Of a stretch of 64,000 nucleotides of DNA, positions 1,404-46,584 are shown one piece after another. Positions within the stretch are counted from its first letter, which is position 1; each line of letters begins with the position of its first letter. Both the position numbers and the translations under genes were made by a program. The notes below the pieces were generated by a model. That model was not told the DNA's origin. It saw only the letters and a program-made list of their open reading frames with translations, and made no database searches. Origin of the DNA: Octopus vulgaris (Eukaryota); NCBI GenBank assembly GCA_951406725.2, contig OX597827.1:44020001-44084000 (forward strand), read 5' to 3'.

Positions 1404-1588
1404 GAATGGTTGATCAACTAGAGCAGGGAACTGTTTCTGGTAGTAACAATACCTATAAATGTAGACGGTCACGCAATGCCTTCACCAACCTGTATACTTA
1501 TAATTATTCACAAGAGACAACGAACAACGATAACGCTTTCTGATTTAGGCGTAACGCCAGCATTTTTGATGAGAAAACCCATAGGTAT

Positions 1589-2035
1589 TATGATCTCTTC
1601 AATACCCCAAATATTATGGTCAGATAGGTACTCTTGCTGAAACACACACCTACAAACACACATCTAACACAGCCTTTTATTAACGCCTCAACCTGTAACT
1701 TTCGAAATTCTACCAATTGCCCACTAGGAGTATCCTGCCCCCAAAGTCTGTATTCTAAAGAAATATCTTCACACCATCCGATGACATCGCAAGGTACTAT
1801 ACGGACATAATAGCCAACCAATGATTTTATGGGAATGTAAACACAGCACATATATTCCTTCAGGTCCAGCGATAGGGAAAATCTACTCCTCTGTCCAGCA
1901 TCTTCTGGAGAATCCGCAACCATCGGAATGCCTAGCAAATTTGAAATGGAATGTCCCTGTCAGGGCCCCCACTTTACTCACTCTGGGACTCAGAATTGCC
2001 AACTCTGTCTCCACGAGAGATTACAGATACTTCTT
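1589..2035 (+). pseudogene. Decayed Penelope-like retroelement ORF remnant (end of RT thumb plus GIY-YIG endonuclease)
   Basis: Manual translation across frameshifts gives YDLFNTPNIMV, TCNFRNSTNCPLGVSCPQS, QHIYSFR, STPLSSIFWRIR, LKWNVPVRAP, CQLCLHERLQIL. This follows the order of recalled PLE motifs FNxxxVKVSY, CNCxxxxxCPLxGxC, HxxSF, STxLSxxIW, IxWxIL, CxLCLxEK. Confidence 0.75.
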
Positions 2036-2244
2036 TATCTTGTTGATAAATTTCAAACTACTGGTAGATGATAATGCGATTATACCGCCCGAGGCCTGGC
2101 TGTCTCTCCCGAGTGTTCGTTAAACTAATACACCTTCTTGTTTTTCCGTCACCTGTCTTCGTATTTTGTTTTCTGTAATCTTGAACTTATACACACACAC
2201 AGACATATATATATATATAAATAACATATACAGACATATATATG

Positions 2245-2305
<61 letters not shown>

Positions 2306-2494
2306 TAGATATATAGATTCCCAGAAAGAGGTTATGAATCAACCAACTAAGGGATAATATATATCCAATATACTGCTGGTAGAATACCCAATTATTAATC
2401 CACAAGTGTTTTTTCATTGCATGACAATTACATTACCGAGTGTAATAAATGGGTGAGAGTAAAGAGTTATTTTACCATTAATTTATAGAGCAAT

Positions 2495-3600
<1,106 letters not shown>

Positions 3601-3611
3601 TTTGCTCTATA

Positions 3612-4027
3612 TGTTAGTTAGTTAGTTAGTTAATTTTTGGCTCAAAAAGCAAAATGCAAGGCCATGTAGGGGGACATGGGGTTATGTACAGGGTGGTGTT
3701 CATGTAAAGAGTTCAGGCCACTTGTGGTCAAGGGAGACTTTGAAACGAGCGGTCGTCGGCATCTTCACCATCTCGTCCGGCAGCTTATTCCACGGATCCG
3801 CAACCCGGACGGAGAAAGCCCCTCTCCTTCGATTGAGATGAAATCGTCGCAGATAGAGCTTTTCGGAGTGACCCCGCAGCCGACGCTCTGGAGCAGGAGT
3901 GAAGAACAGCTCTTTCGAGAGGTTACACTTTCCGCTTATGATGTTGTGAGCAAGAATGAGATCACCACAGTGTCGTCGTTTTACTAGAGAATAAAGGTCG
4001 AGCGTCTTCAGCCTTTCTTCATAAGAC
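3612..4027 (-). mobile_element. 5'-truncated CR1-clade LINE (ORF2 C-terminus, short 3' UTR, (TAAC)n tail)
   Basis: ORF 3700-4029: [37 protein letters not shown], typical of CR1 ORF2 C-termini; tail repeat at 3612-3632. Confidence 0.85.
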
Positions 4028-4029
4028 AA

Positions 4030-4090
<61 letters not shown>

Positions 4091-4483
4091 TGCGTGCGCG
4101 TGTGTGTGTGTGTGTGCGTGTGTGTGTGTGTGTGTGTGTATGCATATATGGGTATAGGAAATACTTGGATATACTTGAAGAGATGATTGTATCCAAAAAG
4201 ACATTGGTTCTATACGTTATGTCTTCGGGAAATAAAATTTCCCTAAATCAAGAAAATGGAGTGTTAGTGGTTAATATTTATTTATTAATAAATTGGTTAT
4301 CATTTCTTCCTACAGCCGTTTACATTCGTACTCATTCAATAAATTTAAGCATTAAAATTCCATTTATAAATTATGTACACTACCACAAAATACCTGAAAT
4401 ATAAAAGGATAAGAGATAAAATAAATCACTCAGCTGCGACAACCGATGCAGACTTTGTGTCCGAGGAGACAAATATACGGTGG

Positions 4484-5726: not shown

Positions 5727-5842
5727 AAAGTTTACGAAAAAAACAAAAGACGAAGATAGGTGGTGTACAAAAGAAACAGACGTATTAGTATAACGCTCAG
5801 GAATAGAAAAAGTCTTTTATGTTTCGAGCCTACGCTCTTCTT
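5722..5842 (-). mobile_element. HHR mini-element family B, 5'-truncated within the ribozyme
   Basis: Minus: GAA-GAGC-GTAG-GCTC-GAAAC-ATA-AAAGA plus tail homologous to 17200-17297, ending at (TA)n. Confidence 0.7.
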
Positions 5843-5960: not shown

Positions 5961-6325
5961 CTAATATTTAGTAGACATGCCCTTTGAATTTTTCAGTGCA
6001 AGGACATGTTACACATGTTACTGATCAGTTGACGAATATTCTCTCTTGCCAAGTTTCATGCAGTAATCTCAAAAGATCTGGCTTTGAAGATGCTTTCTTG
6101 TTCTTTTTATGAAGTGTCCTGTCCATTATGTCCCAGAGGTGCTCAATAGGGTTCATATCAGGTAACTGGCTAGGCCATTGAACCTTTTGAATGTCATTGT
6201 CATCCAACAAATTTTGGGTCATTTTAGCCGTGTGACAAGGAGCCCCGTCTTCCATAAATAAAGAGTTTTCTTTAATCATTTCACTACTGGAGAAGATTGG
6301 AAGAAATCCTTTCTGCAATATGGAT
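5961..6325 (-). pseudogene. Tc1-family DD34E transposase fragment (C-terminal part)
   Basis: FMEDGAPCH...WPSQLPDMNPIEHLW with 34 residues between D and E; out-of-frame C-terminus VLALKNSKGMSTKY*. Confidence 0.9.
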
Positions 6326-6673
6326 ACATCTATCTGAGTTTATGTTTCCCTTGTGAATCGGTGATCGCGTCTACGAGTGATGGCGTGCACGAGTCTAATG
6401 CGAGTGAAAGTGATTCAGAAAACGATTATAATATTTTTCCTATTATAAATGATCTTGACATTCTTTTTACTGTACATAAAATATTCCTTGCATTCCACTG
6501 TTGTTTTATTGCCTGTCGTTTACGAGTATTATAAATTTTATAGGTAAACTTTTTTCTGGGAATGAATTACGATTTATAACATTGCTACTATGGGAAATTA
6601 TTGCTCTGCTTTACGAGTTTTCACATTACGAGAGGTCTCCAGGAACTAATTAACTCTATATCGTGGGCTTACT

Positions 6674-11460: not shown

Positions 11461-11950
11461 ATCATCATCATCATCATTGTTCGACCGTGGTCGAGACAAT
11501 GGAATTTACTATGTTACGCCAGACTTCACGGTCCATCATAGCATTACGGATGTCCTGTTGCTGGATGCCTGTATCCCTGGAGATTACATCAGGGTAGGAG
11601 AGTGTGCGCCCTCTGGTATTGCGAGTAGATGGCTTCCAGAGGAGAAGAGTAGAAATTACTTCTTTTTCAGCTCTACAACAATGTCCAGCAAACTGGACTT
11701 TCTTACCTTTCACAAGAGATGACACAGGTGGTAGTTTCCCATATATTTGCATTTTGGTTGGATGGCGCTTCCACGAGAGATTTTGAGCTCTCATAAGGAG
11801 GCGAGTGTAGGTTCCATCCAACCGCCTCTCAAGCTTCTTTGATAACGTCCAGGTTTCTGAGCCATATAGTAGAATTGGTTCGACTGTGGCTTTGAATATT
11901 TCAAGTTTGAAGTCTCTACTTAGATTTGATGACCAGATCTTATGCATGTC
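11461..11950 (-). mobile_element. 5'-truncated RTE-type LINE (RT C-terminus and (TGA)n tail)
   Basis: KIWSSNLS..KLEIFKATVEPILLYGSETWTL..QFAGHC..MMDREVWR; uninterrupted frame to stop at 11474, then TGA repeats. Confidence 0.9.
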
Positions 11951-11951
11951 A

Positions 11952-11987
11952 CTGAAGAGGTCTAACATGACCGAAACAAGTCCAAAG
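11952..11987 (+). ncRNA. Minimal hammerhead motif (family E), stem I disrupted
   Basis: CTGAAGA-GGTC-TAACAT-GACC-GAAAC-AA-GTC. Confidence 0.6.
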
Positions 11988-12547
11988 TTGTTACCCATTA
12001 CTTGATTCACATTTATTGTTTAATGAATTTTGGTTTCAGAGTAATGTCACCTGAATGTCTTCACAAGAATTAAATAATTACGACTAATGAATTTCCTTTC
12101 ACTTCACTACCGGCGAAATATTAATTAACTGATTAACTAAAAGTTTTTGGTGATCTCATTACAAGATGTACATTAGGTTCTATGTAACTAAATGTTCTTC
12201 ATGCACACAGACTCTCCGAAGAAATCTCTCCAAGTTATATTTTTATCACCTGCCAAATCACTTAATGGCCTTTACTCAATTTTTCTTGATAAAAATATAA
12301 CTTGGAGAGATTTCTTCGGAGCGTCTGCGTGCATGAAGAACATAGAGTTAAACAGAGACTAATGTATATCTTGTAATGAGATCGCCAAAAACTTTTAGTT
12401 AATCAGTTAATTAATAATTCGCCGGTAGTGAAGTGAAAGGAAATTCATTAGTCGTAATTATTTAATTCTTATGAAGACATTCATTTGACATTACTCTGAA
12501 GCCAAACTTCATCAAACAATAAATGTGAAGCAAGTAAGGGGTAACAA

Positions 12548-16938: not shown

Positions 16939-17295
16939 GACGCAGAAGTGGCTGTGTGGTAAGTAGCTTGCTTACCAACCACATGGTTCCGGGTTCATTT
17001 CCACTGCGTGGCACCTTGTGAGTGGATTTGGTAGACGGAAACTGAAAGAAAACCTTTGTATATATGTATAAATATATATAATATATAATATATACAGAAC
17101 GTCATGTTGGATCGTTAGCTCCTACACTCATTTTTTTCTCTCCTTGTTTCTTTTCTGTGTATCTTTCTGTCGAAGAGAGTAGGATCGAAACGTAAAAGAA
17201 TTGTTTTATTTCTATTCCTGAGCGCCATACTAATACAATTGTTTGTTTGTACTCCACCTGCCTTCGTCTTTTGTTTGTTTTCGTGAACCTTCCCG

Positions 17296-29165: not shown

Positions 29166-29309
29166 AATCCAATATATATATGTGTATATATGTGTGTGAG
29201 AAATTGTTCCAATACACCACGACGTTTGAACCTTTTGAACTTTTCTAAACTTTTTGTACTTTCTGCTTTTTCCTATTGTCGTTTCTCTCAATTCGCACTT
29301 GAGCCACTA

Positions 29310-29482
29310 AACTCTTTTTCTATGTTCTCTCCCTGTCTATTTCTGTGTTCCTTTCTGTCGAAGTGCGTAGGCTCGAAACGTAAAAGACTTTCTCACTTCC
29401 AGAGCGTTAAACTAATACAACTGTTTGTTGTTTACACACCAGTCATCGTCTTTTGTTTTTGTTTTTTTTTGTAAATTCACAC
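29310..29482 (+). mobile_element. HHR mini-element family B (motif 29351-29386)
   Basis: CTTT-CTGTCGA-A-GTGC-GTAG-GCTC-GAAAC-GTA-AAAG, ~95-nt tail, then (TA)n. Confidence 0.7.
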
Positions 29483-37127: not shown

Positions 37128-37325
37128 GTGCGTTTATGTTTGTGTGTCTGTGTTTGTCCCCCTAACATCGCTTGACAACTGATGCTGGTGTGTTTGCGTC
37201 CCCGTCAGAATAAGTACTAGGCTTACAAAGAATAAGTCCTGGGGTCGATTTGCTCGACTAAAGGTGGTGCTCCAGCATGGCCTCAGTCAAATAACTGAAA
37301 CAAATAAAAGAATAAAAAATAAAAA
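36918..37325 (+). mobile_element. SINE family 1, near full length
   Basis: Homology to 13707-14155. Confidence 0.9.
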
Positions 37326-37966
37326 GCAGATCTACGAAAAATGCATACGTTACACTCAAAGACCACAATGACAACTTCAACACCGAAATTAATCTTACAT
37401 GAAACGCAGTAATTCGGACCAACAAGAATGTACGATACTGAATACTCACTATGCAAAGTCTTCGACGAAGCCAAATATGTAAATATTCACCAGTTTTAGA
37501 ACATGTGAATATAGAGATCGATGCACACTCATCCAATTTGACATCATCGAATGTTATCCATTAATCACTAAATTCCGTTTTCATAAAGCCATGCAGATCA
37601 CATCTAAATCCACAACCATAACATCAAATGAGCTTAAAGCTTTAATACATTCTAGACGTTCTTTCTTGTTTTAAAAAAAAACGATGCTGGGCAAACAACA
37701 TGAAGAAGCATTCCAGTGTGAATGAATATATTAACATCATCATCATCATCATCATCACTTAACGTTCGCTATCCATGTGGGCATGAGTTGGACGGTTTAC
37801 CCAGATTGGCAAACTGTGGAGCTCTGTCAGATTCCCGTCTGATTCAACTTGGTTTTCTACGGCTGGATGCTCTTCCTAGCGCCAACCACTTTACCGAGTA
37901 TGCTGGGTGCTTATACGTGGCACCACACGAACGCTTTTACGTGCCGTTTTCAAAGCTTTACAGAAA

Positions 37967-39944: not shown

Positions 39945-40391
39945 TCCCTCCATCTGCCAAAAATTATTAACCAAATACTTATATACTATAGCGAGTAAAC
40001 TTCAAATCAGTCGTTTTCCAACGAAAATCCTTTCACAGCTATGCGGGCAAGCATAACGAAGCACCTGGCCATAGCAACTTCACAAAAAAAAAACGCAACC
40101 ACACATAAGTCACCCAGCATAAGGAACGGTGAGATTGTACTTAAACGAAAAAGACGAACTAGTTCAATCTGCCGTTTGGCATGATTATTACAACCGAAGT
40201 GGCAAAGCAATTTCTACTCTTTAGACAGCAATCAGTTCTTAAATTTCCATAAATATTTAATAACTTCAGCAAAATTATTAAATATTTCTTTTCATATGTA
40301 TTAGTATGGATTATAGTATGCATATATATAGATAAGAATACATAGACAAGCACTGACACATCTACGTACATATATATATATATATATATAT

Positions 40392-46440: not shown

Positions 46441-46584
46441 ATATATACATATATATTCGCTATGTCGAACCGCTGAAATCGACAAGTTTTATTCATTTTT
46501 CTTGAGCGTGAAACTAATACATTTACTTGTGGTTCATACACCTGTATTCGTTTTCTTGTTTCCTATAAATTTCAACTATATATA

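What the first reader, a model, noticed from the sequence alone, without database searches (positions are those of the whole stretch)
1589..2190. PLE GIY-YIG remnant joined to the family-B tail: candidate autonomous partner
The decayed PLE thumb/GIY-YIG coding segment is followed at ~2105-2188 by cgttaaactaatacacc..cacctgtcttcgtattttgttttctgtaa, which matches the tail that follows the HHR in family-B elements (e.g. 29400-29482), and then a microsatellite. This links the short HHR elements to a protein-coding Penelope-like element. The CxLCxxE motif suggests the Naiad-type group (recalled, uncertain).
Basis: partly seen in the sequence, partly recalled or inferred. Interest (0 to 1): 0.7.

Follow-up and report, generated by a model that had tools for sequence, protein, structure and literature searches.

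The report
Hydra Penelope fossil, spliced-on tail
This is a dead fragment of a Penelope-like jumping gene of the Hydra type (not Naiad) that ends in the tail of a very abundant short repeat, but the repeat's ribozyme motif is missing at the join, so the join is likely a later splice and does not show that this gene is the repeat's partner.

Summary
Window ~1572-2040 (+) is a decayed C-terminal GIY-YIG end of a Penelope-like element (frameshift-aware score 150 against 35±5 for shuffles). Its motifs fit the Hydra clade, not Naiad. The tail at 2118-2187 is family B's (76-80% to four window copies), a repeat laid at roughly 600-1,700 times single-copy depth. The join is old: a contig from another organism bridges it.

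The partner claim is unproven. The fragment has no hammerhead and matches nothing upstream of B's tail; at least ~190 nt needed for an intact B-type end are missing. None of 46 hammerheads behind Hydra ORFs was of B's minimal type. I could not find what lies upstream of long B copies (no genome held; edge masked).

Best reading: a Hydra fragment secondarily joined to a 5'-truncated B end (0.5); partnership in some form about 0.4. Even if true, Penelope-derived hammerhead elements are in print, and unchecked scan notes report similar Hydra-type ends elsewhere in this and other genomes.

The parts
1572..2040 (+). Decayed, 5'-truncated Hydra-type PLE coding end: thumb end (HRYYDLFN, 1580-1603), linker, GIY-YIG domain; 4-5 frameshifts, several stops. 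May reach back to ~1457 (weak).
1694..1738 (+). CxCX5C-type linker (second Cys now Phe) followed by CPLGVSC
   Evidence: motif defined in PMC8557442 section 11
1997..2017 (+). CxxCxxE motif (CQLCLHE), best-scoring place in the whole window for the Hydra block
2041..2104 (+). Junction zone of uncertain origin: not significant as the LN..CxH end of the ORF (p 0.2-0.3) nor clearly a decayed B hammerhead (p 0.04, 0.41, 0.49 for three copies); no contigs beyond the locus itself at 2047-2104
2103..2187 (+). Family-B 3' tail without hammerhead; 4-nt insertion at 2114-2117; clear match from 2118
2188..2318 (.). AC/TA microsatellite, likely the insertion target
1530..1569 (+). Short piece of an unrelated high-copy repeat at the 5' edge (other copies run on differently behind 1569)
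   Evidence: tables 2 and 7
29208..29482 (+). Longest family-B copy: T-rich upstream part, minimal type I hammerhead motif 29351-29386 (CUGUCGA core, palindromic stem III), tail
17136..17293 (+). Family-B copy with hammerhead motif at 17167
5728..5840 (-). Family-B copy truncated inside the hammerhead motif
46480..46577 (+). Family-B tail copy; possible hammerhead traces just upstream (by eye)

Best explanation
A dead, 5'-truncated endonuclease-coding end of a Hydra-type Penelope-like retrotransposon sits directly against the last ~85 bases of a family-B repeat, and the two were likely joined secondarily from separate elements. Inferred route: both kinds insert into TA microsatellites by target-primed reverse transcription. 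Either a B end landed in the TA tract behind the Hydra copy and a deletion later removed the Hydra 3' UTR, its hammerhead and the front of B, or the reverse transcriptase switched from B RNA to Hydra RNA during one insertion. Shown: the Hydra-type coding decay, the B tail, the missing hammerhead, the age of the join. Inferred: separate origin and route. The locus is now inert (inferred from stops and frameshifts).
For: From the CxxC (1997) to the tail anchor (2118) is 121 nt. An intact B-type end would need about 87 nt to CxH, at least 30 nt to the stop (65 of 79 Hydra loci), at least 147 nt of B upstream sequence and 50 nt of hammerhead: 314 nt or more. In 46 of those 65 loci a hammerhead lies 31-515 nt behind the stop; none is of the minimal type (several loci are near-duplicates). 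The 26 Hydra rows of File S2 all have a stem III of 3-4 pairs around a loop, and the Hydra-1_Obim end is unlike B by eye; four B motifs had no exact hit in that supplement. The best-supported loose ends before 2118 are the hammerhead side of B in all 4 runs (24 of 358 rows shown). B tails are common: 5 in 64 kb, all ending at TA tracts, with variable 5' truncation. Summed depth over single copy: tail 627-1,722x, endonuclease patches 7-12x.
Against: Both parts have the same orientation and the order of a real PLE end (ORF, then tail, then TA). No microsatellite lies at the join, so a plain nested insertion is not enough and a deletion or template switch must be added. An internal deletion in a single element explains the same picture with one event fewer. 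The depth gradient (tail 627-1,722x, B upstream ~160-200x in two runs, endonuclease 7-12x) also fits a steeply 5'-truncated family or a rare partner; these depths are no copy numbers. B's T-rich upstream part looks like a PLE 3' UTR. The Hydra hammerheads I compared are not from octopus except Hydra-1_Obim.
Confidence: 0.5

Rival explanations
1. The fragment is one element: family B is the 3' end (pseudo-LTR) of this Hydra family, or a non-autonomous derivative of it, and this copy lost about 190 nt or more (ORF end, UTR, hammerhead) by internal deletion.
For: Right order and orientation. Same TA-flanked 3' end as B copies. Hydra elements prefer (TA)n and carry 3' hammerheads. Variable 5' truncation of B fits PLE ends. 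The copy may have other internal losses (about 13 codons near 1612-1620 against P0002).
Against: B's minimal U6 hammerhead differs from all 26 published Hydra rows and all 46 found here. Very few contigs match the endonuclease part compared with the tail. No match between remnant and B upstream sequence.
Confidence: 0.3
2. The join is natural: this Hydra family ends without a recognisable hammerhead, its ORF running into a tail that B shares, as SINEs share tails with LINEs. B would use this family's enzyme through the shared tail.
For: Frame +1 is open from 2071 to a stop at 2176-2178, 32 codons from the putative CxH, within the 10-46 seen. Tails of two other hammerhead families weakly resemble B tails (4 of 10 pairs p 0.001-0.014).
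Against: Hammerheads are reported as universal in Hydra. No contig other than the locus covers 2047-2104 in 4 runs (weak, since paralog cover is patchy). The 4-nt insertion at 2114-2117 makes the open frame doubtful. The remnant tail itself shows no likeness to those two other tails (p 0.51, 0.68).
Confidence: 0.12
3. The join is an assembly error, or the tail match is chance between T-rich sequences.
For: Microsatellite-rich surroundings.
Against: Contigs bridge the join in X3 (1380-2178, possibly the source sample), X14 (another organism, 1393-2167, 76 other letters) and X8 (another organism, 1941-2144). Tail scores exceed all 500 shuffles in each pair.
Confidence: 0.02

Closest known systems
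Hydra clade of C-terminal EN+ Penelope-like elements, incl. Hydra-1_Obim (Craig et al. 2021, PMC8557442; passages, sections 6 and 11, supplement parts 2, 52, 53 and searches)
   Same: Thumb end, then CxCX5C-type linker, GIY-YIG without CCHH, CxxC before the conserved E; 3' end at a TA tract.
   Different: A different family from Hydra-1_Obim by eye. Dead fragment, no RT core, no 3' UTR, no hammerhead; its tail belongs to a repeat with a minimal hammerhead.
Minimal type I hammerheads in PLE pseudo-LTRs (described in PMC6155905 and PMC7229834, passages; the 2014 source paper was not read)
   Same: Family B carries a minimal motif with palindromic stem III near its 3' end and is variably 5'-truncated.
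   Different: B has U at core position 6 in the two window copies that keep that position; cutting untested; the parent element is not identified.
Non-LTR retrozymes as non-autonomous PLE derivatives (bioRxiv 10.64898/2026.07.22.740005, text parts 1-3 of 5; PMC7229834, passages)
   Same: The idea that short hammerhead elements derive from PLE terminal repeats and use PLE enzymes.
   Different: B copies here are dispersed single truncated ends, not tandem units with canonical hammerheads.
Naiad clade (PMC8557442 section 6)
   Same: PLE GIY-YIG endonuclease, TA preference, no canonical hammerhead.
   Different: Naiad endonuclease is N-terminal, with CCHH and CX2-5CxxC motifs; none of this fits.

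Membership tests
Hydra-clade PLE | GIY-YIG endonuclease C-terminal to RT/thumb | tested here: met
   Thumb-end block at 1568 precedes linker and endonuclease
Hydra-clade PLE | CxCX5C linker | tested here: met
   C-N-F-X5-C at 1694-1720 aligns to CNC-X5-C of P0001 and P0002; second Cys decayed
Hydra-clade PLE | No CCHH motif; CxxC before the conserved E | tested here: met
   CQLCLHE at 1997; no Cys inside the GIY-YIG core in the alignment
Hydra-clade PLE | CxH after the conserved N | tested here: inconclusive
   In-register candidate at 2053-2091 scores p 0.2-0.3
Hydra-clade PLE | RWK and DKT motifs, no IFD in RT | not testable with these tools
   RT core absent from the fragment; full-length relatives P0004 and P0006 have RWK and DK[TS]
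Hydra-clade PLE | Hammerhead in the 3' end | tested here: not met
   None in this copy. Hence filed as a Hydra-type fragment, not as an intact member
Hydra-clade PLE | Insertion into (TA)n | tested here: met
   3' end abuts an AC/TA tract, but this end may belong to B
Naiad PLE | N-terminal endonuclease | tested here: not met
   Order is thumb, linker, endonuclease
Naiad PLE | CX2-5CxxC and CCHH motifs | tested here: not met
   Linker is CxCX5C-type, no CCHH
Non-LTR retrozyme (for family B) | Tandem units each with a type I hammerhead | tested here: not met
   Five dispersed single copies in the window; rest of genome not examined
Autonomous partner of family B | Intact copies end in the B hammerhead and tail | not testable with these tools
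   No genome held; 5' edge masked; pattern scans empty

The most novel reading that the evidence does not exclude
An octopus Hydra-clade family supplies the enzyme for a very abundant short element and shares only its 3' tail with it, SINE/LINE-style, while the short element carries a minimal hammerhead with U at the normally fixed position 6. That would name the tail as the recognition signal of a Penelope reverse transcriptase.
Probability: 0.12. Interest if true: 0.55.

Novelty: new member of a known kind. Interest (0 to 1): 0.2.

Why it matters
As it stands it is ordinary retrotransposon debris: a second octopus-type Hydra family besides Hydra-1_Obim, in a dead copy. If the partnership held, it would give the parent of one of the genome's most abundant hammerhead repeats and a way to test which sequence the Penelope enzyme recognises. 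The general link between hammerhead elements and PLE ends is already published.

Tried and rejected
Whole genome not held. Rfam scan of the window at E≤1: the 150 of 457 rows shown were all small-RNA models (miRNA, one snoRNA) below their gathering scores, largely on microsatellites; no hammerhead family among them. Pfam: 0 families in 3 frames of the remnant; two hits below cut-off for P0001. Word-based protein search with the broken frame: none of 46 candidates. Protein search with a translation of B, to catch what lies upstream: 1 candidate, no hit. Exact 22-nt B hammerhead pattern: 0 in metagenome, viral and prokaryote collections. P0001 in viral contigs: none. B and the remnant against 79 Hydra loci by blastn: nothing below E 0.02. 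Laying contigs on B's 5' edge: all long pieces start at 29206-29208 next to a masked repeat, so a fixed 5' end cannot be told from truncation of this copy. No RNA holder listed; 27 contigs of a possibly-RNA run laid on B upstream are not evidence of expression. Folding five tails and two hammerhead stretches: no z-score below -0.65, so no tail structure is shown. Reading 2061-2105 as a decayed hammerhead: 1 of 3 comparisons at p 0.04, not accepted. Extension of the ORF to ~1457: weak, left open. Paper searches for an octopus hammerhead/Penelope link and for A6 variants (listing only) found no description of family B; subscription papers, Dfam/Repbase, the unread supplement of PMC13282606 (passages read; supplement only listed) and the closed bioRxiv supplements may hold it.

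Full report
Setting. The window is a 36% GC, microsatellite-rich animal sequence. It looks like an octopus; that label is recalled and echoed by unchecked scan notes, not established by a call.

The coding remnant is real and Hydra-type. Reading 1574-2074 with stops as X found 1 protein among 1.84 billion representatives (P0001, E 3.5e-7). P0001 retrieved 11 longer relatives with the marks of the Hydra clade: CxxCxxE and LN..CxH in 11 of 11, CxCX5C in 5 of 11, RWK and DK[TS] in two full-length ones. A frameshift-aware alignment gave 49 of 104 identities to P0001 over 1634-1955 and a score of 150 to P0002, against 35±5 in 12 shuffles. The order is thumb end (1568), linker (1694-1720, second Cys decayed), GIY-YIG core, CQLCLHE (1997). 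Craig et al. 2021 (PMC8557442) define Hydra by a C-terminal endonuclease, a CxCX5C linker, no CCHH, and CxxC/CxH motifs. Naiad has an N-terminal endonuclease with CCHH. The Naiad label is therefore wrong. By eye the fragment is a different family from the published Hydra-1_Obim. A piece of another high-copy repeat lies at 1530-1569.

The tail is real and is family B's. 2118-2187 matches four window copies at 76-80%, above all shuffles, and ends at the same point before a TA-type tract. In four public runs the tail is laid at 627-1,722 times the depth of the single locus, and the best-supported loose ends before 2118 are the hammerhead side of B in every run (24 of 358 loose-end rows shown; depth is no copy number). 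The five window copies keep about 275, 160-185, 113, 100 and 85 nt: one 3' end, variable 5' truncation, as expected for target-primed insertion.

The join is old but not an intact end. Contigs of two other organisms bridge it (X14, 1393-2167, 76 other letters; X8, 1941-2144), so it is no assembly error. There is no hammerhead in the copy, and neither 1572-2104 nor 2300-2484 resembles B's upstream part. I fetched 79 Hydra-type loci. In 65 the ORF end could be read: 10-46 codons from CxH to the stop, median 15. In 46 of these 65 a hammerhead lay 31-515 nt further on (some loci are near-duplicates, and the other 19 include short or diverged flanks). With B's upstream part of at least 147 nt, an intact B-type end needs 314 nt or more from the CxxC to the tail anchor; the remnant has 121. 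The zone 2041-2104 is not significant as ORF end (p 0.2-0.3) nor clearly a decayed hammerhead (p 0.04, 0.41, 0.49).

Whose tail is it? For a foreign origin: B's hammerhead is minimal with U at core position 6, while all 26 Hydra rows of the paper's File S2 and all 46 found here have a longer stem III; endonuclease paralogs are few (7-12x against 600x and more); B ends occur about every 13 kb and share the TA target. For an own end with a deletion: order and orientation are right, no microsatellite lies at the join, and one event fewer is needed; the depth gradient (B upstream about 160-200x in two runs) also fits a steeply truncated family. Only one of the compared Hydra hammerheads is from an octopus. 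My attempts to find B's parent failed: the 5' edge was masked, and pattern and protein searches were empty. I give a secondary join of separate elements 0.5, own end with deletion 0.3, a natural shared tail 0.12.

Comparison with what is known. Minimal hammerheads in PLE ends (PMC6155905 and PMC7229834, passages) and short hammerhead elements derived from PLE terminal repeats (bioRxiv 10.64898/2026.07.22.740005, parts 1-3 of 5) are in print. Octopus vulgaris has at least 31 recently active Penelope-like families (PMC13282606, passages). I found no paper on family B, but repeat libraries and unread supplements may hold it. Unchecked scan notes report truncated Hydra-type ends, a shared tail hairpin and an abundant altered-core family in this and other genomes; I used them as leads only. 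My tests gave weak tail likeness across families and no stable tail fold.

Verdict. A real, dead Hydra-type fragment joined to a real B tail; Naiad wrong; partnership possible (about 0.4) but unshown. New member of a known kind, interest 0.2.

Noticed in passing
window 37310-37719 (+): Second decayed Hydra-type PLE piece, RT region (profile iE 5.5e-12; tblastn E 2e-6), cut by a microsatellite.
   Followed up: partly
window 38492 (+) and 28017 (-): Two other minimal hammerhead motifs with canonical cores; their tails weakly resemble B tails (4 of 10 pairs p≤0.014).
   Followed up: partly
window 17167, 29355: Family-B hammerhead core reads CUGUCGA (U at position 6) in both copies that keep it; an unchecked scan note describes an abundant altered-core family that may be the same.
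   Followed up: no
window 2063-2086: Small bulged inverted repeat in the junction zone (seen by eye, not tested).
   Followed up: no
window 2484-2709 and 3388-3611: Inverted pair of ~226 bp, 89.6% alike.
   Followed up: no
window 3700-4209 (-), 11474-12019 (-), 6025-6339 (-): Open frames that look like LINE RT ends and a Tc1/mariner transposase piece (labels recalled, not tested).
   Followed up: no
window 40019-40261 (+): Faint hit to the Hydra thumb region (iE 0.024).
   Followed up: no
L051:967 (+): Minimal-type hammerhead candidate about 1.5 kb upstream of the endonuclease match, the only one in 79 loci.
   Followed up: no
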